Numbered from the stretch's first letter, positions 3,735 to 47,189 are shown. The stretch: 47,189 nucleotides of DNA from a virus (IMGVR_UViG_646311924_000019), one strand, 5' to 3'. Translations and numbers: made by a program. Notes: a model not told the origin generated them from the sequence alone.

Positions 3735-6700
3735 TCAGCTGATACTGATACCTGCTGTGGATTTTTTCATCACCACAACCAGCAGATCGCTGATACTGGT
3801 TGTTGGTGTCCAGTTATTCGCTCCTGATGAAGATACGGTGAATGTCAGTGTCAGCGTCCCCTGTCCGGCAGGCATATCTATAACTGAAGAAAATACGCCC
3901 TGAGCATCCGTCGTGGACTGATTAAAAATCTCCTGACCATTGCGGGTCACTCTTAACCGGCAGGTTGAATACCAGTATGACTGTTGGTTATTACTGTTGA
4001 AATTCTCATGCTTACCACCGCGGAATAACACTGGCGGTATCATGACCTGCCGGTCAAACTTCTGATCATCACTGATTCTTACCGTGATGGTGCCACTGGC
4101 ATAAGTGCTCGTGCGGGGGAAAGACTTGCTGACCGTTTTGACAATATCGCCTTCAATCTGGTTGGCTGACAGTTTCCCCTTAATCTGACAGTTCTCATTA
4201 ATCGTGACGTTGTTGAGCGTCCCTGAGTTCGCATTCACACTGCCACTGATATCCGCATTTTTCGCCGTCAGTCGCCCGTCCGGCGTCAGGGAAAATGCCG
4301 GAGGATTGCCGGATGATGTGATGCTCACCGCAAACAGTCGTTTCAGGAACACGTCGTTCATGAACAGCTGATTCCCCTGCGCCACAAATAACGGCGTGCT
4401 GTTGCCGCTCTCCGGATTTATCATCGCGATACGGTCAGCCAGCAGCAGTATGTTGCTCAGTGGCTGGCCATCAGTATCCTCAATCCCTGCACCAATCCCG
4501 GCCACATAGGGAATGCCGTCTTTCGTTTTTTGAACCTTCAGCATGTACAGCGCAGCCAGGTCATCATTTGTGTCCTTCTGCACGCGCTGTATCTGCTGTA
4601 TGGTGGCGCTCTGGTCCTCCAGCGTTTTACTGACCGTCTGTGTGATTTCATTGCGGGTTTCCGTGATGCTGGTCTTCATCTCCGCCATCTCATCCGCAAG
4701 CTGGCTGTTATCTATCAGTTCCCACACCCCCTGAGCCAGATGCAGTTTTCCTATTTTTTCCCGGAAAAATTCCAGATACCCTTCACCATCATTGCTGGGC
4801 TGCCCGCTGACTTCCACAAACGCAGATTTCCCCACCAGGTTGACGCTGCGCACGTAAAACCAGAAATCCTTCCCGGGCTTAATGTGCGGGCCGGATACAC
4901 TCCACTGACTGCCGGTCCCCAGATAACGGGCAGAGGTTTCCACCTGAGATGTGTCTGCGATTTTTGCCTCCGAAAACCAGAACTCAAACTGTACCGTCGG
5001 GTCATAAACGGCAAGATGCGGCGTGGCGGTTATCTGAAAATAGCCCGGCGTCAGCTCAATCCGCGACGGTGCTGCCGGTGCGGCAATCCGGAAGGTGGTG
5101 GTGGCAGGTTCACCCTGCTGGCCATAGCTGTTTATCGCCCGCACCGTCAGGGTGTATTCCCCGAGCGGCAGGCCGCTGAAACGGTGCTCCGTGTCTGCGG
5201 TGATGGCGGTGGTCACCAGTCTGGCATCCGTTCCCTTACCACTGGTCAGGCGCAGACTGAAGCGCACGCCCTTCACCACCCGCGGCGTGTCCCATTTCGC
5301 CTGTGCCAGATACTGACCGTCAGCCGCGCTCACCTCCACCGTCAGGTGCTGCACAGCCGGCGGGATGACGCTGTTCAGCGAACCGGACAGTGGCTCAAAG
5401 CTGGCCCCGTTATCCACAATGGCTTCTTTTTCCGGTACGTGCTGCACCGCCGTGATGGCAAAGGTGCCGTCCGTGTTTTCCCGGATGGAGACACAGCGGA
5501 ACAGGCGACGACGCAGTGACGGCAGGGAGAGTCCCCATACACCGTATGTCTCCACGCCATCCGGCAGGGTGCTGACCTGTATCCGGTCCGGCGCGGGGTG
5601 TGCAGTGATGGCCACGCTCACCGGCTTACCGCTGCCGTTAATCAGGTTCACCGTCGGTGTACCTGTCTCCGGCAGGGTCACCTCACGGTCCAGTGTCAGG
5701 GTGCGGCTGGCGGCATCGATGGACAGGACACGTCCGCCGGTCATGGTCCCGGCATAGTCGTTATCACAGATTTCAATAATGTCACCGGGTGTGTGACGCA
5801 GCCCCTGAGACCCGAGCGTGAAATCCACCGTCTGCGTTTCCAGCAGTCCGGTCTTTATCACCCACAGTCCGGCACGGTAGGCCTGACCGCGGCTGGTACA
5901 GCCGAACGCGTCCATCTTCAGCAGGTTGCGTCCGTAGCGCAGTATGGCTTCCGGGTCTTCCACCAGTTCCGTGGAGGTCTGCCAGCCGTTCTGCGGGTCG
6001 GTGTAATTCACCTCCACCGCCGTGTGCCGGTCCTTCAGGGCACTGAAGCTGTAGCGGAATCCCACGCCGTTATCATCCACCACCACATCGCTGTTGGTGT
6101 ACGGCCACACCACATCCGACGGGCGGTCCTGAACGAACGTCAGCGTCTGACCGTTCCATACCGGCATACAGCGCATCGCAGAGCAGAAATCACTGAGAAC
6201 GTCCCACGCCTTACGCTGTTGTGCCAGGTACGCATTAAAGGTCATCCGCGGCTCGGTCCCCCCGAAACCATCCGGGACCGTCTGGTCGCAGTACTGCCCG
6301 ATGGCATACAGCGCCCACTTGTCCACATCCGCCGCCCCCAGACGTTTTCCCATGCCGTAGCGCGGGTGAGTCAGCATGTCCCACAGACACCAGGCCGGGT
6401 TGTTGCTGTATGCCGGTTTCAGACTGCCGTCCCAGATACCACTGTACGTGCGTTTTTCCGGGTCGTAGTTTGACGGCACCTGGATGATGCGACCGCGGAT
6501 ATGGTAGTTCACCGTCATCTGCTGGCCGCCGAACTGCTCCGCATCCACCTGCAGCCCCACAATGGCCGTGTTCGGGTAGCACTGTTTCACATCGATGATT
6601 TCGGTGTATGACGACCACAGCGTCTTATTCTGCAGCTGGTCCGTGGTGCTGTCCGCCGTCTCCCTGACCATCCGGATGTTAAAGGGCCGGGGCGGCAGAT

Positions 6701-8138: not shown

Positions 8139-8779
8139 TTTTCAGAATACCTCTCCCGTTTACTCAGTTGTTCAGGCAGATGGTGAAGCAGTTCACCGTT
8201 GCCGCAGTAAATGGCGGCATGATTGGCCACCGATGCGCCAAAGCAGCACAGCAGGATATCGCCCGCCTGTGCAGAGGACAGGGGCACCCGGTAAAAGCCG
8301 GTGACCGCCATATTGTCCAGGTAAAGGTTCTGACCGTTACGCCACCAGTCATCCTCACGCTCAAAATCCGGCATATCAATTCCCGCCAGATGGTATGCAT
8401 CCCGGAACAGCGTGTAACAGTCCGTCACCCCGTGCTCAAAGCGCCGTCCTGTCAGATGTGGCACACAGCGGAATTTATGAATGTCCCCCCGGCAGACCAG
8501 CCACCAGGACAGTGCACTTTTTATCTGCAGCCGCCGGTCGGCCTCGCTCAGCCAGGGCAGACCACCGGGATGACTGTGGACCAGTGCCACAATCTCCCCC
8601 TGCATCTCTGCCCGCAGCCAGTCTTCCGGTGCAATACGAAAATACGCCTCCGGCTCTGCAGAGATATTCACACAAGGGATATACCGCTCCCCCTCCGGCG
8701 TTCTCACCACGAAGCCGCACGACTCCGCAGGCACACACCGCCGGGCATGCGCCAGAATCGCTGATTCTGTCTGTGTCAT
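8036..8779 (-). CDS. K: Tail assembly protein K (NlpC/P60 and MPN domains)
   Basis: 247-aa ORF matching lambda gpK (MTQTESAILAHARRC...); overlaps I by about 100 nt. Confidence 0.85.
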   Translation of the reverse strand: MTQTESAILAHARRCVPAESCGFVVRTPEGERYIPCVNISAEPEAYFRIAPEDWLRAEMQGEIVALVHSHPGGLPWLSEADRRLQIKSALSWWLVCRGDIHKFRCVPHLTGRRFEHGVTDCYTLFRDAYHLAGIDMPDFEREDDWWRNGQNLYLDNMAVTGFYRVPLSSAQAGDILLCCFGASVANHAAIYCGNGELLHHLPEQLSKRERYSEKWQRRTHSVWRHRHWHASAFTGICNDLAAASACT

Positions 8780-8784
8780 TGGAT

Positions 8785-9483
8785 TTACTGCGAAAGTTTG
8801 TTAATGGAAAGGAAACCGCCAAAATTAGCCACCATGCCGCGCATCTCACACCCGCGCATGCACTTGCTGCATCTGTCCTTACGGATATCGGTGGTGGGTT
8901 TATCGAACTCATCCGCCACCGCAGGACCGTTATACCCGCATTCATCTCCCCGGTAATCCCACATACAGGTGTTCGCCAGCATGATGCGACCGGGAAACAG
9001 CGCTCCGTCCGTCTCCGTCGGTGTGGCCAGCACAAACGAGGCCGTCATGGCCGTCAGCTCTGACATCTGCTCCACCACCCACCGGTCAGTCAGCTCCTGC
9101 TCCGGGTCGGCCTCCGGATTGCCTGCCACAAAGTTCACCGCATCCAGAAAACGCGCATACACCCGGCGGCGGACCACCGTGGCACCCACCAGGCTCTGCA
9201 AATCCTCCGCCATCCCGGTGACAAGACCGAACAGATTGGACACCGTCAGCGACGGGCGGGCACTGCTGCCCTTTCCGTTCATCTCAAAGCCGCTGCCCTC
9301 AATCGGGTACGCCTGATATTCACGCCCCTGCCAGGTCACCGGCTCCCCTTTTTCATTCAGCTCATTGCAGAAAAAATACCGCTCACCGCCCTGCGCCGTC
9401 AGGTCGATTTCCCAGAGTACCACCCGCGGTGACTGCTCTGATTTAACCGACTCGTTCAGACTTTCTTCGTGAATATCCTGCAT
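8785..9483 (-). CDS. L: Minor tail protein L
   Basis: 232-aa ORF matching lambda gpL including the C-terminal Cys cluster. Confidence 0.9.
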   Translation of the reverse strand: MQDIHEESLNESVKSEQSPRVVLWEIDLTAQGGERYFFCNELNEKGEPVTWQGREYQAYPIEGSGFEMNGKGSSARPSLTVSNLFGLVTGMAEDLQSLVGATVVRRRVYARFLDAVNFVAGNPEADPEQELTDRWVVEQMSELTAMTASFVLATPTETDGALFPGRIMLANTCMWDYRGDECGYNGPAVADEFDKPTTDIRKDRCSKCMRGCEMRGMVANFGGFLSINKLSQ

Positions 9484-9812
9484 CAGTTCACCACCTGCTT
9501 AAACTCCGCGCTGAACTCAACGCGCAACATCCCGACCCGCGCAGACCACCCGGCACAGGTCACCTTTATCTGCCGGTATGCATAGGGTGGCTTCCACAAA
9601 AATGCCTTCCAGCCTCCGTGCTCTGCCAGGAACGCTTCCAGATGCCGGGCCTCCTCCCGGGTCACGGAAAGCGTCACACGGTATGTTTTCAGGTCAGCAT
9701 TCAGCCCTGCCGCCATACGCTGTGAGTACCCGTCACCAAAACGCACTTCACGCACCGACGGCTGCGAGTTCACCTCCATATCCGGCTTCACTTTCCAGCG
9801 AAAGGTTTTCAT
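9483..9812 (-). CDS. M: Minor tail protein M
   Basis: 109-aa ORF matching lambda gpM. Confidence 0.9.
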   Translation of the reverse strand: MKTFRWKVKPDMEVNSQPSVREVRFGDGYSQRMAAGLNADLKTYRVTLSVTREEARHLEAFLAEHGGWKAFLWKPPYAYRQIKVTCAGWSARVGMLRVEFSAEFKQVVN

Positions 9813-41980: not shown

Positions 41981-42406
41981 TCAATGTACTGCCACAGCAT
42001 TTCCTGCCGGGCCACCACGGTTCATCTGATTGAAACCGGCGATTGCCACTGCGACAAAATCATCAGCGTCTCTCACCAGTCGCTCCCGCGTCTCCACCAG
42101 CTCCCGAAAATAAGCTGAACTGTGGCTGCGCATTCTGGCCACCAGCAAAGGTGGCATTGCCTTTTCGATCGCTGGTAACAACGCCTGAATTTTTTCAACT
42201 GCATCAGGGGTGTCTTTCTCTACCCAGCGGAAAATTTTCTGGGTATTGCGAGCCAGGGCTTCCGGATGGCTGTCGTCATACAGTTCAGGAAACGTCATAC
42301 CCAACTCAAAATAAGCCTGGGTTATTCCAGCTGCTGGAACTTTTTCGCCATCAGGACGCGCCCAGGCATTCATCGCCATGCGGATGTGTTCATGCTTGAT
42401 TTTCAT
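41981..42406 (-). CDS. YdaT-like protein (CII-position regulator/toxin family)
   Basis: 141-aa ORF beginning MKIKHEHI as in Rac YdaT (recalled); follows the Cro-like gene. Confidence 0.65.
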   Translation of the reverse strand: MKIKHEHIRMAMNAWARPDGEKVPAAGITQAYFELGMTFPELYDDSHPEALARNTQKIFRWVEKDTPDAVEKIQALLPAIEKAMPPLLVARMRSHSSAYFRELVETRERLVRDADDFVAVAIAGFNQMNRGGPAGNAVAVH

Positions 42407-42671
42407 GAATCAAGCTCCTAGTAAGTGGTTGTGTTAACGTTTTGGTATCTTCCAGCTCGGGCCAAATATTCATCCAATCAAAAGGCCTTAGTTGCTGACG
42501 TGTAACTTCACCATTACTGGCTCGCTCAATAAGGACACATAACGATGCCCCTAACATTTGACCTTTACTCAATGCCTTTCTTAGATAACCGATGCTAGTA
42601 CCACACTCACATGCAAACATACGCTGTTCATCTGACGAAAGAGAATTGAGAAATATTCTTAATTCTTCCAT
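42390..42671 (-). CDS. Cro-like repressor (YdaS/DicC-like HTH)
   Basis: 93-aa ORF with AAGGAG Shine-Dalgarno, divergent from the repressor gene. Confidence 0.7.
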   Translation of the reverse strand: MEELRIFLNSLSSDEQRMFACECGTSIGYLRKALSKGQMLGASLCVLIERASNGEVTRQQLRPFDWMNIWPELEDTKTLTQPLTRSLIHENQA

Positions 42672-42770: not shown

Positions 42771-43190
42771 ATGGACAAATATGAATTTAGACGACAACAA
42801 CTCATCAAAATTCGTGATGAGAAATGCGATGGTAAAGCGGTTAACGTGGCCAGAAAGATCGGTCGCGAGCCTTCTTATGTATCAAGAATGTTGTACCCAG
42901 AGGGGAAAAAAGGAAAAAAACGGATCGCTGATGATATGGTGGAGATTATAGAAGAGTCCTTTGGGTTACCCCGGGGATGGATGGATGGTATCGTTTCATC
43001 ATCAACGAACACAGCCTCCAATTATGAAACAAGGGTTCTAACGCCACGACAACGTATTTTTTTAGATCTCTTAGACGAACTGCCAGAAAGTGAAGCGGAT
43101 AACTTATTAAAAACTCTTGAAGAGAAAAAACAGTATTACAATATGATCTACGAAGAAATCCGTAAAAAGAAAGCACAAAACGCATCATAA
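42771..43190 (+). CDS. Prophage repressor (DicA/RacR-like HTH), probably leaderless
   Basis: 139 aa from ATG 42771 (track ORF starts at an upstream TTG); HTH AVNVARKIGREPSYVSRML; no Shine-Dalgarno before the ATG. Confidence 0.7.
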   Translation: MDKYEFRRQQLIKIRDEKCDGKAVNVARKIGREPSYVSRMLYPEGKKGKKRIADDMVEIIEESFGLPRGWMDGIVSSSTNTASNYETRVLTPRQRIFLDLLDELPESEADNLLKTLEEKKQYYNMIYEEIRKKKAQNAS

Positions 43191-43229: not shown

Positions 43230-43272
43230 AATTACCCATGGGTATTTACTTTTTAAATACCCATGGGTATCC
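43230..43272. promoter_or_regulatory. Two copies of the 12-bp palindrome TACCCATGGGTA (candidate operator of the leftward operon)
   Basis: Perfect palindromes at about 43233-43244 and 43258-43269, upstream of the ydaF-like gene. Confidence 0.4.
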
Positions 43273-43455: not shown

Positions 43456-43608
43456 ATGGATACTATCGATCTTGGCAACAGCGAATCTCTGGTATGCGGC
43501 GTGTTTCCCAACCAGGACGGTACGTTTACCGCGATGACGTATACCAAAAGTAAAACGTTTAAAACCGAAGCTGGCGCGCATCGCTGGTTAGCAAGAAACT
43601 CCGACTGA
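43456..43608 (+). CDS. YdaF-like small protein
   Basis: 51 aa MDTIDLGNSESLVCGVFPNQDGTFTAMTYTKSKTFKTE... with GAGG Shine-Dalgarno; track ORF is an upstream extension. Confidence 0.7.
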   Translation: MDTIDLGNSESLVCGVFPNQDGTFTAMTYTKSKTFKTEAGAHRWLARNSD

Positions 43609-44258
43609 TGAGGTTGACGATGGAATTTAAAGATTTACCTCCTTCAATCCAGGAGATTGCAGCACACACACTTCGTCATCGTCTGAACGAACTTGAATTG
43701 GAATCGGTAACGAAAAAAGACACTGATAATATGGCTCGTAATGTGCGCGATGCGTTTACCGGATTGTATTTCTGTGCGTCTATAAATAAACACGACTCAG
43801 AGAGTGTGGCAAATAAAATTGCAGAAACGACAGCGCAAAACATCAATACGAAACCAACGGAAGAAGAAATTGATCAGTTTGCTCATGATGCTGGTTTAAA
43901 AAACAAGAAAGAAAAATCGCCATATGCGGGGAACATGTTTGTTTATGACAATCTCATCAGAATTCGTGGCGAAATTCCGGCGGAATACCTGGCAAGAGTC
44001 CATCAGGCATTGCTTAAAAATTTGGAAACAGAATTATTTGATGGCAACACTAACGGTTTCTTCATGGTATCAGGCCTTGATAAAGACTGGGATGCAGAAA
44101 AACGCTGGAATGTTGCTACATGGTTATTCAGTAACAGAGCCGCTGCACTGGAAGCTTCGGCATGTATTTGCGGCCTGTTCTTAACAGACCACAAATATAA
44201 TCTGGATGTGTACAGTTATATTTACGCTGAACACGGTCCACTCTGGATTGACTGGTAA
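43608..44258 (+). CDS. Hypothetical protein (216 aa), no family recognised
   Basis: ATG overlapping the ydaF-like stop (TGATG); alternative start at the fifth codon with GAGG Shine-Dalgarno. Confidence 0.6.
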   Translation: MRLTMEFKDLPPSIQEIAAHTLRHRLNELELESVTKKDTDNMARNVRDAFTGLYFCASINKHDSESVANKIAETTAQNINTKPTEEEIDQFAHDAGLKNKKEKSPYAGNMFVYDNLIRIRGEIPAEYLARVHQALLKNLETELFDGNTNGFFMVSGLDKDWDAEKRWNVATWLFSNRAAALEASACICGLFLTDHKYNLDVYSYIYAEHGPLWIDW

Positions 44259-44468
44259 TTATAAGGAAACACCAGCAGGGCCGCGGCGACCAACAGAACG
44301 ATTAAAATCAATAATGCCATTATAAAGGACATTATTTAATTTATCGTCGAATGCTGATTCTGTGAGCCTCAACTCTGAATGAATTTTTAATAACCCTGAT
44401 TGCCTGAGTTGATTTACCAGGCATTCAATCTGTTTTTCAATAAGCGGATTTCTTTTTTTGTTTGGCAT
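44259..44468 (-). CDS. Hypothetical small protein, convergent with the 216-aa gene
   Basis: 69 aa from the ATG with GGAGGA Shine-Dalgarno (track ORF starts 12 nt upstream). Confidence 0.35.
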   Translation of the reverse strand: MPNKKRNPLIEKQIECLVNQLRQSGLLKIHSELRLTESAFDDKLNNVLYNGIIDFNRSVGRRGPAGVSL

Positions 44469-44805
44469 TTTATCCTCCATTGAGGTTCTGGGTTAAAAAT
44501 GGAGACCAACACGCTGTCACGTGTGGTCGTGCGCCGGACACGGATAAGAATCCGGTACTGACAGTTTACTGAAAGGATATTTCCCTGAAAAGTCAGGGCA
44601 TAACGCGAAAGCGTACGGCGAAGCTCTTTCCCTTAGAAGGCTTGTCGTTAGATTTCTTCGAACGTGCGCTTCCGGTTGTGGCACTCCGCGAAATGGCGCG
44701 GCGGTAAGTATGGCGGGGTTATTCCTTCCCCGTTGAGGACACCGGGTTGTCAGGTTGACCATACGCTTAAGTGACAACCCCGCTGCAACGCCCTCTGTTA
44801 TCAAT

Positions 44806-44863
44806 TTTCTGGTGACGTTTGGCGGTATCAGTTTTACTCCGTGGCTGCTCTGCCGCCCTTTTT
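44806..44863 (+). ncRNA. dicF: DicF small RNA
   Basis: tttctggtgacgtttggcggtatcagttttactccgtggctgctctgccgcccttttt matches the DicF sRNA as recalled (one mismatch), including its terminator. Confidence 0.8.
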
Positions 44864-45038
44864 AAAGTGAATTTTGTGATGCGGTGAATGCGGCTAAGCG
44901 CACGCGGAACAGTTAAAACAAGCGGTCTTTTACGGGCGTAACGGGAATGCTCTGTATCCGGCGTTAATTGTTAACTGGTTAACGTCACCTGGAGGCACCA
45001 GGCACTGCATCACAAAATTCATTGTTGAGGACGCGATA

Positions 45039-45227
45039 ATGGAAACGTTATTACCAAACGTTAATACGTCTGAAGGTTGTTTTGAAATTGGTGTCACTAT
45101 CAGTAACCCTGTATTTACTGAAGATGCCATTAACAAGAGAAAACACGAACGGGAGCTATTAAATAAAATATGCATTCTTTCAATGCTGGCCCGTTTACGT
45201 CCGATACAAAAAGGATGCTGGCAATGA
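45039..45227 (+). CDS. dicB: Cell division inhibitor DicB
   Basis: 62-aa ORF METLLPNVNTSEGCFEIGVTISNPVFTEDAINKRK... matching DicB as recalled; GAGGA Shine-Dalgarno. Confidence 0.85.
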   Translation: METLLPNVNTSEGCFEIGVTISNPVFTEDAINKRKHERELLNKICILSMLARLRPIQKGCWQ

Positions 45228-45415
45228 ATACAGCATTTGCACTTGTTCTGACAGTTTTTCTTGTTTCCGGAGAGCCAGTTGATATTGCAGTCAGTGTTCA
45301 CAGGACAATGCAGGAGTGTGTAACTGCAGCAACCGAACAGAAAATTCCCGGTAACTGTTACCCGGTCGATAAAGTTATTCACCAGGATAATAACGAAATC
45401 CCGGCAGGTCTTTAA
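45224..45415 (+). CDS. ydfD: YdfD lysis protein
   Basis: 63 aa MNTAFALVLTVFLVSGEPVD...; ATG overlaps the dicB stop (ATGA). Confidence 0.8.
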   Translation: MNTAFALVLTVFLVSGEPVDIAVSVHRTMQECVTAATEQKIPGNCYPVDKVIHQDNNEIPAGL

Positions 45416-45507: not shown

Positions 45508-45936
45508 ATGAGTAAAGTCTTTATTTGCGCCGCCATTCCGGACGAACAGGCAATAAAGGAAGAAGGTGCAGTCGCTGTAGCCACTGCCATTGAAGCCGGT
45601 GATGAATGTCGCGCCCGCGCAAAATTTCACTGGCAATTCCTGGAACATTATCCGGCTGCTCAGGACTGCGCTTATAAATTTATTGTCTGCGAGGATAAAC
45701 CTGGCATACCCCGCCCTGCCCTCGATTCATGGGATGCTGAATATATGCAGGAAAACCGCTGGGATGAGGAGTCTGCTTCTTTTGTCCCGGTTGAGACTGA
45801 ATCCTATCCGATGAACGTCACTTTTGACAAGCTGGCCCCTGAAGTACAGAACGCTGTCATGGTTAAGTTCGACACATGTGAAAACATCACCGTTGATATG
45901 GTTATTAGCGCACAGGAATTGTTGCAGGAAGACTGA
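45508..45936 (+). CDS. YdfE-like protein, probably truncated by the IS insertion
   Basis: 142-aa ORF with GAGG Shine-Dalgarno; its stop codon TGA is the first three bases of the IS terminal repeat. Confidence 0.6.
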   Translation: MSKVFICAAIPDEQAIKEEGAVAVATAIEAGDECRARAKFHWQFLEHYPAAQDCAYKFIVCEDKPGIPRPALDSWDAEYMQENRWDEESASFVPVETESYPMNVTFDKLAPEVQNAVMVKFDTCENITVDMVISAQELLQED

Positions 45937-45975
45937 ACCGCCCCGGGTTTCCTGGAGAGTGTTTTATCTGTGAAC

Positions 45976-46866
45976 TCAGGCTGCCAGATCATCGTTTCCG
46001 ATGGAAGCATAATAAGCTTTTTCTGCTTCTGCCGGAGGAGTATGGCCCAGCCTTCCCAGCAATCGTCGATTGTTATACCAGTCCACCCACGTTAGTGTGG
46101 CCAGTTCCACTTCTGCACGGTTTTTCCAGCTCTTACGGTGTATTACCTCCGCTTTGTAAAGACCATTGATGCTCTCAGCCATCGCGTTGTCATACGAGTC
46201 GCCTGTACTCCCTGTTGATGCCAGTAATCCGGCTTCTTTTAGTCGCTCCGTATAGGCCAGTGACACATACTGAGAGCCTTTATCGCTGTGATGGATGGTG
46301 CCAGACGGACGACGGGCCCACAACGCCTGCTCCAGCGCATCCAGCACGAATGTCGTTTCCATAGACGATGAGACCCGCCACCCCACGATGTATCCGGCAA
46401 ACACATCAATGATAAACGCCACATAGACGAAGCCCTGCCATGTGCTGACGTAAGTAAAATCAGCCACCCACAGCTGGTCAGGTCGTTCTGCCACGAACTG
46501 ACGGTTTACGCGGTCGCCTGCGGCAACGGCTTTCCGGCTGATGGTCGTACGGACCTTTTTACCCCGGAGAACACCGGCAAGTCCCATAACCGCCATGAGA
46601 CGTGCCACTGTACATCTGGCCACCCTGATTCCTTCCCGTAACAACTGACGCCAGACTTTACGCACACCGTACACCTGATGATTTTCATCGTATACGCGCT
46701 GTATCTCTCTCTTCAGCCAGTCGTCGTGCTGCGCACGGGCACTGCGTTTATCCGGATGATGTCGCTGTTGCTGACAATGGTAATACGTTGACGGGGCAAT
46801 ATGCAGTTCGCTGCATACCGGTCCGACCCCGTACTGCTCACGCAGCTTATCCAGCAGTGGCATCAT
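45976..46866 (-). CDS. IS3-family transposase OrfB (DDE catalytic domain)
   Basis: 296-aa ORF in the -1 frame relative to orfA. Confidence 0.85.
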
Positions 46867-47189
46867 TTTTTCCAGAGGCGGTCGAACTCCGCCTTCGCAA
46901 AATAAGCGGAAGCCTGGCGAAGGATATCGTTACTGCGGCGCAGTTCACGATTTTCACGTTCCAGCTCTTTCAGACGCTGACGTTCAGCGCTGGTGAGCCC
47001 ACCATCACCGCCCCCGGTATCCCGCTCATGCTGGCGAACCCAGACACGCAGAGTCTCCGGCGTACAGCCAATCTTTGGGGCAATGGAACAAATTGCCGCC
47101 CACTGTGAGTCATATTCATCCTGACTTTCCAGAACCATACGAATCGCCCGCTGACGGACTTCGGGGGAAAAACGAGTATTTTTAGTCAT
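46863..47189 (-). CDS. IS3-family transposase OrfA (HTH, leucine zipper)
   Basis: 108-aa [18 protein letters not shown]...; A6 run at the orfA/orfB overlap suggests a -1 frameshift to make OrfAB. Confidence 0.85.

What the first reader, a model, noticed from the sequence alone, without database searches (positions are those of the whole stretch)
43608..44468. Uncharacterised 216-aa protein with a convergent small gene in the immunity-adjacent leftward operon
Between the ydaF-like gene and the DicF precursor, where K-12 Qin carries ydfA/B/C, lies a 216-aa protein with no motif I recognise, translationally coupled to ydaF, and a convergent 69-aa ORF with a strong Shine-Dalgarno. The leftward early operon next to the repressor is a classic site for exclusion and host-takeover genes, so this pair is a candidate for an undescribed function.
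Basis: inference. Interest (0 to 1): 0.6.

Follow-up and report, generated by a model that had tools for sequence, protein, structure and literature searches.

The report
Convergent prophage gene pair, function unknown
A real, conserved pair of tail-to-tail genes of unknown function sits inside the early operon of an E. coli prophage; it is one type of a family of swappable cassettes and is arranged like known prophage "defence plus self-immunity" pairs, but no function has been shown.

Summary
In a Qin-like dicBF early operon, a 926-bp cassette (43602-44527) replaces K-12 ydfB/ydfC. It carries a forward gene (best start 43620, 212 aa, not 216) and an abutting convergent 69-aa gene (44259-44468). 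Both are under purifying selection (Ka/Ks 0.11-0.29). Neither matches Pfam, NCBIfam, PADLOC or PDB sequences; both fall in PHROGs of unknown function. The forward protein has a ~60-aa N-domain, shared with many other C-termini, plus a ~115-aa alpha/beta C-domain with no close structural relative. The C-domain and the 69-aa gene stay together: 74/74 and 81/87 related loci. They also stay together in Salmonella prophages where the N-terminus and phage backbone differ, once with the C-domain fused to an HTH. The small gene follows a conserved ~90-nt two-hairpin leader. That leader also precedes at least four unrelated small ORFs, each paired with its own forward C-terminus. The layout matches Tab/anti-Tab and Tai/Ati. 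My best reading (confidence 0.4, inferred): the basic small protein is made independently of the early operon, probably in lysogens. The acidic early-operon protein is its cognate binder or antidote. The cassette is in 596 of 5,426 complete E. coli genomes, including O157:H7, O111 and O145.

The parts
42771..43190 (+). Prophage repressor-like gene (139 aa) upstream of the early operon
   Evidence: phrog_5736 transcriptional regulator, E 6.7e-70. Weak DicA match, 23.8 bits. Sits where dicA sits in K-12.
43233..43269 (.). Perfect 16-bp-stem palindrome with T-runs on both strands. It looks like a bidirectional terminator between the repressor gene and the early operon, and is the first minus-strand terminator-like site downstream of the 69-aa gene.
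   Evidence: Terminator-like on both strands in the consensus scan. Function not tested.
43456..43608 (+). ydfA/ydaF-like gene (DUF1391, 50 aa), first gene of the operon
   Evidence: Pfam PF07151, E 6.5e-28. 90.8% DNA identity to K-12 ydfA.
43620..44258 (+). Forward cassette gene, 212 aa (pI 5.2), Shine-Dalgarno GAGG at 43610-43613
   Evidence: phrog_2151, E 2.5e-147, unknown function. 153 homologues, Escherichia and Salmonella only. All start MEFKDLP.
43620..43799 (+). N-domain (residues 1 to about 60, helical), shared with many different C-termini
   Evidence: Matches phrogs 1363, 9419, 6937 and 33007 over residues 1-50/75 only. Most of the 53 clusters found at 50% identity match positions 1-55/90 only. 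Also present in the early-left operon of Stx2a phages.
43914..44255 (+). C-domain (residues 99-212), topology beta-beta-alpha-beta-beta-alpha-beta. This is the part that co-occurs with the 69-aa gene.
44259..44468 (-). Convergent 69-aa gene (here called A'), basic (pI 9.7), conserved C-terminal GRRGPAGV-L tail. Its A7 run at 44453-44459 is a frameshift site in relatives.
   Evidence: phrog_4274, E 5e-51, unknown function. Ka/Ks 0.11-0.29. 74/74 related loci have the C-domain adjacent. Frameshift variants.
44469..44555 (-). Conserved leader of the small gene: hairpin 2 (44534-44555), hairpin 1 (44504-44528), CTCCAT (44499-44504), Shine-Dalgarno GGAGGA (44473-44478)
   Evidence: The same leader precedes at least 5 unrelated small ORFs. 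Hairpin 1 is kept with at least 4 unrelated stem sequences. No Rfam match.
44563..44568 (-). Putative -10 element (TAAACT), 7 nt upstream of hairpin 2. Candidate own promoter of the small gene.
   Evidence: A -10-like hexamer, often TGn-extended, lies at the same 7-nt distance in otherwise unrelated flanks: L007, L035, L079, L241, L278. Inferred, not a mapped start site. The consensus scan did not report it.
44807..44858 (+). DicF sRNA, downstream in the same + strand operon
   Evidence: Rfam RF00039, 75 bits, E 1.1e-15. No + strand terminator-like site between 43270 and 44840.
45039..45227 (+). dicB (62 aa), followed by a ydfD-like DUF1482 gene at 45224-45415
   Evidence: PGAP annotation of the identical region. 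Translation. Pfam DUF1482, E 7.8e-25.

Best explanation
The region is a mobile two-gene cassette that interrupts the repressor-controlled dicBF early operon of a Qin-like, probably defective, prophage.

What the cassette holds:
- The forward gene (212 aa, acidic) is transcribed with the operon. It has a constant N-domain and a type-specific C-domain.
- The convergent gene encodes a 69-aa basic protein. It lies behind a conserved two-hairpin leader with its own putative promoter, so its expression is uncoupled from the early operon. It is most likely made in the lysogen.

Proposed working:
- The small protein is the effector, acting in superinfection exclusion, defence or another lysogen function.
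- The forward protein's C-domain is its cognate binder or antidote. It is made only when the early operon fires, on induction or infection.
- Read-through of the operon across the small gene also silences it by convergent transcription or antisense RNA.

This would be a 'noncontiguous operon' defence plus self-immunity pair, as in Tab/anti-Tab and Tai/Ati, but placed in an early rather than a late operon.

Shown: gene reality, architecture, linkage across backbones, and the cassette family. Inferred: the promoter, reciprocal expression, protein-protein binding, and any anti-phage activity.
For: 1. Both ORFs are under purifying selection.
2. Linkage is tight. 81/87 loci with the C-domain have the small gene abutting, and 74/74 the other way round.
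3. The pair persists at 33%/52% identity in Salmonella prophages with a different N-terminus and an integrase-HTH-Cox backbone. It also persists in loci where the C-domain is fused to an HTH_3 domain. That layout is typical of partner- or ligand-binding modules of regulators and antitoxins.
4. Sibling cassettes show the same type-specific pairing: B'/B in 6/6 loci and D'/D in 29/29.
5. The small gene has a strong Shine-Dalgarno and a conserved leader. A -10-like element sits at a fixed 7 nt from the first hairpin in unrelated flanks.
6. No + strand terminator-like site lies between the forward gene and DicF. None lies on the - strand between the small gene and the palindrome at 43233-43269. 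The two transcripts should therefore overlap.
7. The charges are opposite: pI 9.7 against 5.2. The type B pair shows the same pattern.
8. There are published precedents with the same topology. [quoted passage not shown] In phi80, taiEcA and atiEcA form a noncontiguous operon (PMC11364771).
9. In K-12 Rac, sieB is convergent to ydaF at the equivalent site.
Against: - There is no expression, interaction or phenotype data.
- There is no sequence or fold similarity to any known defence or counter-defence protein.
- Co-inheritance could be explained by physical abutment alone. No conserved sequence lies between the two genes for recombination to act on.
- Each partner can be lost alone. In 9 of 78 informative loci the forward gene is intact and the small gene is broken; the reverse occurs in 1.
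- One cassette type (E) has only the N-domain opposite its small ORF.
- The consensus promoter scan found no good sigma-70 site for the small gene.
- The hairpins and the -10-like element also occur in K-12 and in phage Tritos, where no small ORF follows.
- The module is absent from all 50,697 deposited phage genomes, so its role in a productive lytic cycle is untested.
Confidence: 0.4

Rival explanations
1. The two are unrelated accessory genes (morons) that happen to share a recombination hotspot. The conserved N-domain 5' end and the conserved leader act only as homology 'handles', so whatever lies between them is inherited as a block without any functional interaction.
For: - Breakpoints sit in the conserved flanks. 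N-domain identity to the window varies from 43% to 100% while the C-domain stays near 82%.
- Homology to K-12 ends inside ydfA and resumes just past hairpin 1.
- Either gene can be inactivated alone.
- Type E has no C-terminal domain.
Against: - The C-domain/A' pair survives replacement of both flanks, that is the N-terminus and the phage backbone. It survives to 33%/52% identity, and in three different forward architectures.
- Three cassette types show strict type-specific pairing.
Confidence: 0.25
2. The roles are reversed. The forward protein is the effector: an early host-takeover or anti-defence protein with a constant N-domain and an exchangeable C-terminal 'warhead'. The convergent gene, through its protein or simply its antisense transcript, keeps the effector silent or neutralised in the lysogen.
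For: - The architecture resembles polymorphic toxin-immunity loci: conserved N-terminus, variable C-terminus, small cognate neighbour.
- The N-domain protein family is present in the early-left operon of active Stx2a phages.
- A minus-strand transcript would run antisense through the whole forward gene.
- The small gene is lost more often than the forward gene.
Against: - The forward gene already lies behind a repressor-controlled promoter, so a second silencing layer is not obviously needed.
- Fusion of the C-domain to an HTH fits a binding or sensor domain better than a toxic warhead.
- No toxin-like fold or catalytic motif was found. No His or Cys is invariant across the family.
Confidence: 0.2
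3. It is a classical type II toxin-antitoxin addiction module.
For: It is a small basic protein next to a larger acidic partner. One relative of the partner carries an HTH. A weak, sub-threshold VapB15 hit was seen (E 0.1).
Against: - The genes are convergent, not a bicistronic autoregulated operon.
- The forward gene belongs to a repressed lytic operon, so it cannot be a constitutive antitoxin.
- No TA or PADLOC family matched.
- Each partner occurs intact beside a broken partner.
Confidence: 0.05
4. The 69-aa ORF is a chance antisense ORF. The real feature would be only the untranslated spacer of the DicF precursor, or the 36-aa hydrophobic alternative-frame ORF at 44222-44332 acting as a type I toxin.
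For: The hairpins also occur in K-12, where no ORF follows. The alternative frame encodes a hydrophobic peptide.
Against: - Ka/Ks is 0.11-0.29. The protein is conserved at 52% identity with saturated synonymous sites.
- The Shine-Dalgarno and start are conserved.
- The hydrophobic frame has no Shine-Dalgarno. It loses its start codon in L007 and is closed by a stop in L006.
Confidence: 0.02

Closest known systems
Tab / anti-Tab of Pseudomonas phage JBD26 (PMC10884400)
   Same: - The defence gene is on the strand opposite to a lytic operon and has its own promoter.
- The partner gene is on the operon strand, tightly coupled to the preceding operon gene, and convergent with the defence gene.
- The partner acts by direct binding.
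   Different: - Tab/anti-Tab sits in the late operon, between the terminase genes; this cassette sits in the early-left dicBF operon.
- No sequence relationship is known, and the Tab sequences were not compared here.
- In this cassette the operon-strand partner is the larger protein and the opposite-strand gene is only 69 aa.
- No function has been shown here.
TaiEcA / AtiEcA noncontiguous operon of phage phi80 (PMC11364771)
   Same: - An opposite-strand, lysogen-expressed gene interrupts a lytic operon that carries its adjacent counter-defence.
- Operon read-through lowers expression of the opposite-strand gene.
   Different: - The phi80 genes are head-to-head in the Q-dependent late operon; here they are tail-to-tail in an early operon.
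- BLASTP finds no similarity (best E 17).
sieB in the K-12 Rac prophage
   Same: It is an opposite-strand gene convergent to the DUF1391 gene (ydaF) inside the early-left operon next to the repressor.
   Different: - SieB is a 162-aa protein with hydrophobic segments and no similarity to the 69-aa soluble basic protein.
- No cognate forward partner with a variable C-terminus is known for it.
Qin ydfA-ydfB-ydfC-dicF-dicB-ydfD operon of K-12
   Same: The backbone is the same. ydfA, the dicF precursor, dicB and ydfD are 91-93% identical in DNA.
   Different: ydfB and ydfC are replaced by the 926-bp cassette. The 212-aa and 69-aa proteins share no DNA similarity with that part of K-12.
Polymorphic toxin-immunity loci (CdiA-CT/CdiI, Rhs-CT/RhsI)
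   Same: A conserved N-terminal part, an exchangeable C-terminal domain and a co-varying small neighbouring gene. Several types occur, sometimes in tandem.
   Different: - There is no secretion or delivery domain and no recognised toxin domain.
- The partner is convergent and has its own conserved leader.
- The setting is a phage early operon.

Membership tests
Noncontiguous-operon defence/counter-defence pairs (Tab/anti-Tab, Tai/Ati) | One gene lies on the strand opposite to a lytic operon and interrupts it | tested here: met
   The 69-aa gene is on the - strand between the forward gene and DicF/dicB on the + strand. No + strand terminator-like site lies between 43270 and 44840.
Noncontiguous-operon defence/counter-defence pairs (Tab/anti-Tab, Tai/Ati) | The opposite-strand gene has its own promoter and is expressed in the lysogen | tested here: inconclusive
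   A -10-like hexamer sits at a fixed 7 nt from the leader hairpin in unrelated flanks. The consensus scan found no full sigma-70 site. There are no expression data.
Noncontiguous-operon defence/counter-defence pairs (Tab/anti-Tab, Tai/Ati) | The adjacent partner is encoded in the lytic operon and coupled to it | tested here: met
   The forward gene starts 11 nt after the ydfA-like stop, with its own Shine-Dalgarno. The position is the same in all Qin-like loci.
Noncontiguous-operon defence/counter-defence pairs (Tab/anti-Tab, Tai/Ati) | Sequence homology to Tai/Ati or to any catalogued defence protein | tested here: not met
   BLASTP against TaiEcA and AtiEcA gave best E 17. PADLOC gave no hit with E below 0.01. 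Tab and anti-Tab sequences were not compared directly.
Noncontiguous-operon defence/counter-defence pairs (Tab/anti-Tab, Tai/Ati) | Direct binding of the partners and an anti-phage phenotype with self-immunity | not testable with these tools
   This needs two-hybrid or pull-down assays, plaque assays and deletion mutants. No multimer prediction tool was available.
Type II toxin-antitoxin module | Co-directional, co-transcribed bicistronic operon with a recognisable toxin or antitoxin family | tested here: not met
   The genes are convergent. No TA family passed threshold in Pfam, NCBIfam or PADLOC.
Qin YdfB / YdfC | Sequence similarity to K-12 YdfB (42 aa) or YdfC (72 aa) | tested here: not met
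   blastn homology to K-12 is absent between 43602 and 44527. Several relatives carry ydfB/ydfC in addition to the cassette.
SieB-type superinfection exclusion protein | Homology to SieB; membrane protein with hydrophobic segments | tested here: not met
   The 69-aa protein has GRAVY -0.45 and no hydrophobic stretch. No Pfam or PHROG match to SieB. Only the genomic position is shared.
Polymorphic toxin-immunity systems | Conserved N-terminus, variable C-terminal domain, co-varying adjacent small gene | tested here: met
   The N-domain is shared by many clusters with different C-termini. Pairing is type-specific: A/A' 74/74, B/B' 6/6, D/D' 29/29.
Polymorphic toxin-immunity systems | Recognisable toxin domain and a secretion or delivery N-terminal domain | tested here: not met
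Prp/YsxB-like cysteine protease (top BFVD fold hits) | Conserved His-Cys catalytic dyad and a close fold match | tested here: not met
   TM-scores are only 0.36-0.50. No His or Cys is among the columns invariant across the E. coli and Salmonella clades.

The most novel reading that the evidence does not exclude
Enterobacterial prophages carry an undescribed polymorphic system of convergent effector/antidote cassettes. Each unit has three parts: a forward early-operon gene (constant MEFKDLP N-domain plus exchangeable C-terminal specificity domain), a cognate small opposite-strand gene, and a portable ~90-nt structured leader with its promoter. The conserved N-domain and leader serve both as functional parts and as recombination handles, which lets phages swap exclusion/self-immunity specificities. 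At least five types exist, sometimes in tandem. Because the unit sits upstream of dicF and dicB, its convergent promoter would also gate DicF/DicB output in EHEC.
Probability: 0.3. Interest if true: 0.75.

Novelty: new variant of a known kind. Interest (0 to 1): 0.55.

Why it matters
- If the reading is right, this is a new family of prophage conflict modules in an early operon. Tab/anti-Tab and Tai/Ati are late-operon systems that target tail assembly. A basic 69-aa early-acting effector would have to hit a different, earlier step.
- The conserved flanks (N-domain and leader) give a simple way to mine further effector/partner pairs.
- The cassette is common in pathogens. It is in 596 of 5,426 complete E. 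coli genomes, including O157:H7, O111 and O145.
- It lies between the early promoter and dicF/dicB. From my own knowledge, DicF feeds into virulence regulation in EHEC. DicB inhibits cell division and protects against some phages (PMC6832061, title and abstract only). A convergent promoter here could therefore modulate both.
- If the rival 'unrelated morons' reading is right, this is an ordinary mosaic hotspot holding two orphan genes.

Tried and rejected
- Family searches found nothing usable. Pfam, NCBIfam and PADLOC gave nothing above threshold for either protein or for the sibling cassette proteins. PHROGs gave only unknown-function families. PDB sequence profiles gave nothing.
- The full-length AF2 model was poor (pLDDT 62.8) and was not used for fold search.
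- The species-representative genome scan found no relative.
- The idea that CTCCAT sequesters the Shine-Dalgarno was tested by folding 24 leader variants against shuffles. The Shine-Dalgarno is no more paired than in controls, so the idea was dropped.
- G-U wobble variants in hairpin 1 do not favour either strand (my reading).
- The 36-aa hydrophobic alternative-frame ORF was rejected as a type I toxin.
- The alternative N-terminus of the Salmonella proteins is not detectably related to the MEFKDLP N-domain (hhalign probability 2%).
- Literature searches for the accession numbers, 'Ybl81', the PHROG ids and DUF1391 found nothing relevant.
- I could not map Sakai or EDL933 locus tags, so published EHEC transcriptome and ribosome-profiling data were not checked.

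Full report
**1. Observation**

The window from 42.7 to 45.4 kb is a Qin-like immunity and early-left region. Its features, in order:
- a Cro/YdaS-like gene (42390-42671, - strand);
- a repressor-like gene (42771-43190, + strand; phrog_5736);
- a DUF1391 ydfA/ydaF-like gene (43456-43608, + strand);
- the forward ORF (43608/43620-44258, + strand);
- the convergent ORF (44259-44468, - strand);
- DicF (44807-44858; Rfam 75 bits);
- dicB (45039-45227) and a ydfD-like DUF1482 gene (45224-45415).

The identical sequence in E. coli 2015C-3101 is annotated by PGAP with exactly these genes, and the two ORFs are 'hypothetical protein'.

Compared with K-12 Qin, DNA homology stops at 43601, inside ydfA, and resumes at 44528. 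A 926-bp cassette therefore replaces ydfB and ydfC, and ydfA is retained.

The forward gene most likely starts at ATG 43620 (212 aa). All homologues begin MEFKDLP, and GAGG lies 6 nt upstream. ATG 43608 (216 aa) has no Shine-Dalgarno. The small ORF has GGAGGA 4 nt before its ATG, and the two stop codons abut.

**2. Are they genes?**

Pairwise Nei-Gojobori Ka/Ks is 0.11-0.29 for the 69-aa ORF and 0.11-0.28 for the C-terminal half of the forward gene. A Salmonella copy of the small protein is 52% identical although synonymous sites are saturated. A 36-aa hydrophobic ORF in another frame (44222-44332) is not conserved and has no Shine-Dalgarno. Both annotated ORFs are therefore real coding genes.

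**3. What are the proteins?**

Neither protein matches Pfam, NCBIfam or PADLOC above noise. They fall in phrog_2151 and phrog_4274, both of unknown function. PDB sequence profiles find nothing.

The forward protein is modular.
- Residues 1 to about 60 (the 'N-domain') match four other PHROGs. In an exhaustive profile search they match dozens of 50%-identity clusters of 39-201 aa whose C-termini differ. The N-domain also occurs in the early-left operon of Stx2a-converting phages.
- Residues about 99-212 (the 'C-domain') recur behind a different N-terminus in Salmonella proteins of 220 aa. In a 286-aa form it lies behind an added HTH_3 domain.
- That other N-terminus is not detectably related to the N-domain.

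The full-length AlphaFold model was poor (pLDDT 62.8). The C-domain alone, with an alignment spanning both clades, gave pLDDT 77.7 and pTM 0.73, with topology beta-beta-alpha-beta-beta-alpha-beta. It has no close structural relative:
- Foldseek against PDB finds nothing at E 1e-3 or better;
- BFVD top hits are Prp-like with TM 0.36-0.50, and the family has no invariant His or Cys.

The small protein is basic (pI 9.7) and the forward protein acidic (pI 5.2).

**4. Linkage**

- Of 87 fetched loci with the C-domain, 81 have the small gene abutting tail-to-tail. The exceptions are two contig ends, one truncated gene and three copies of one internal deletion.
- All 74 IMG/VR loci found with the small protein have the C-domain next to it.
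- The pair also occurs in Salmonella prophages with an integrase-HTH-Cox backbone and the alternative N-terminus. There the C-domain is 33% and the small protein 52% identical, with a 53-bp overlap.
- It occurs in prophages with a Mu-type repressor.
- It occurs in the HTH-fused 286-aa form, beside a still more diverged 64-aa copy.
- Each gene can decay alone. Among 80 IMG/VR loci both are intact in 64. The small gene alone is broken in 9: six carry an A7-to-A6 frameshift at 44453-44459 and three carry the deletion. The forward gene alone is broken in 1, and both are broken in 4.

This argues against an addiction module.

**5. A cassette family**

The roughly 90 nt upstream of the small gene on the minus strand hold hairpin 2 (44534-44555), hairpin 1 (44504-44528), CTCCAT, the Shine-Dalgarno and the ATG. 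This leader also precedes at least four unrelated small ORFs in other prophages:
- an 80-aa zinc-ribbon-like protein (type B');
- a 64-aa protein starting MSEQELK (type D');
- a 61-aa protein starting MSDKLINPF (type E');
- a 100-aa protein starting MHSKSNRYY (type C').

Each of these is tail-to-tail, from a 62-nt overlap to a 77-nt gap, with a forward gene that starts with the N-domain and ends in a type-specific C-terminus. Type E has the N-domain only. Pairing is type-specific: B' with B in 6/6 loci and D' with D in 29/29. In Salmonella, two units lie in tandem. All the families involved are PHROGs of unknown function, and none is in PADLOC.

Hairpin 1 is kept with at least four unrelated stem sequences, and in some loci the whole hairpin is inverted. 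A -10-like hexamer, often with a TGn extension, lies exactly 7 nt upstream of hairpin 2 in otherwise unrelated flanks. I read this as the small gene's own promoter, with hairpin 2 at the 5' end of the RNA. That is an inference.

K-12 and phage Tritos have the -10-like element and both hairpins but no ORF. The idea that CTCCAT sequesters the Shine-Dalgarno was not supported against shuffled controls. Rfam has no family for the leader.

**6. Mechanism**

No terminator-like site separates the forward gene from DicF on the + strand. None lies on the - strand between the small gene and the palindrome at 43233-43269. The two transcription units should therefore overlap and interfere.

This topology is an opposite-strand gene with its own promoter, interrupting a lytic operon whose adjacent gene is tightly coupled to the preceding one. 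It is the topology described for two characterised systems:
- tab/anti-tab of phage JBD26, where anti-Tab binds Tab (PMC10884400);
- the taiEcA/atiEcA 'noncontiguous operon' of phi80 (PMC11364771).

In K-12 Rac, sieB is convergent to ydaF at the equivalent site.

I therefore favour the following reading, with confidence 0.4. The 69-aa basic protein is an effector made independently of the early operon. The forward protein's C-domain is its cognate binder or antidote, made when the operon fires. Operon read-through also silences the small gene. The HTH fusion suits a binding or sensor role for the C-domain.

There is no homology to Tai or Ati, and there are no data on expression, binding or phenotype.

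The rivals are:
- linkage without interaction (0.25);
- reversed roles, with the forward protein as effector (0.2);
- a classical toxin-antitoxin module (0.05);
- a spurious ORF (0.02).

**7. Distribution and novelty**

- The cassette covers at least 80% of its length in 596 of 5,426 complete E. coli genomes, including O157:H7, O111 and O145. Parts of it, mostly the N-domain end, occur in 1,699.
- Protein homologues are confined to Escherichia and Salmonella.
- None was found in the GTDB species-representative genomes.
- Neither the C-domain nor the small protein occurs in 50,697 deposited phage genomes.
- This copy sits in a decayed prophage. The exonuclease gene is cut by an IS3-family element, and in the identical strain the integrase gene is truncated.
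- No paper mentions the accession numbers or family names.

I file it as a new variant of a known kind: an opposite-strand accessory gene with a lytic-operon partner. It has an undescribed polymorphic cassette architecture, and its function remains unproven.

Noticed in passing
window 43233-43269: A perfect 16-bp-stem palindrome (TACCCATGGGTATTTA..TAAATACCCATGGGTA) with T-runs on both sides lies between the repressor gene and the ydfA-like gene. It scores as a terminator on both strands and could equally be an operator.
   Followed up: partly
window 45508-47189: An IS3-family element (IS1203-like; ORFs at 45976-46866 and 46863-47189, with the ALIL frameshift pseudoknot at 46792-46908, Rfam 121 bits) cuts the RecE-like exonuclease gene. 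Its N-terminal fragment is 45508-45936. In the identical strain the integrase gene is also truncated, so the prophage is probably defective.
   Followed up: partly
window 44453-44459 (- strand A7 run, codons 4-6 of the 69-aa gene): In 8 of 80 related IMG/VR loci the run is A6, which truncates the ORF to 17 aa. This may be one clonal event, slippage-prone inactivation, or homopolymer sequencing error.
   Followed up: partly
L002 (K-12 Qin) 2600-2660 and L003 (phage Tritos), minus strand; window 44504-44568: The -10-like element and both hairpins are present downstream of ydfC in K-12 and Tritos, although no small ORF follows. This could be an unannotated antisense RNA or a processing element of the dicF precursor.
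   Followed up: no
related loci L074, L080-L085 compared with window 44504-44528: Hairpin 1 occurs in both orientations. The loop TGACAG appears as CTGTCA, meaning the whole hairpin is reverse-complemented. It looks like an inversion across its own stem arms.
   Followed up: partly
L007-L009 (Salmonella), about 5000-6500 and 8200-9600: Two cassette units lie in tandem. Further on there are repeated C4 antisense RNA and isrK matches, together with Phage_ASH and 'Derepression' genes.
   Followed up: no
L014 (E. coli CEC96047) 1466-1944: A relBE toxin-antitoxin pair is inserted between the repressor gene and ydfA, which shows that the immunity-proximal end of this operon accepts other accessory modules.
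   Followed up: no
window 44856-45071: A sub-threshold Rfam match to STnc100 (34.7 bits against a gathering score of 47) lies in the DicF-dicB spacer.
   Followed up: no
window 44222-44332 (- strand): A 36-aa strongly hydrophobic ORF lies in an alternative frame and overlaps both genes. It has no Shine-Dalgarno and is not conserved in L006 or L007, so it is probably a by-product of the other reading frames.
   Followed up: yes
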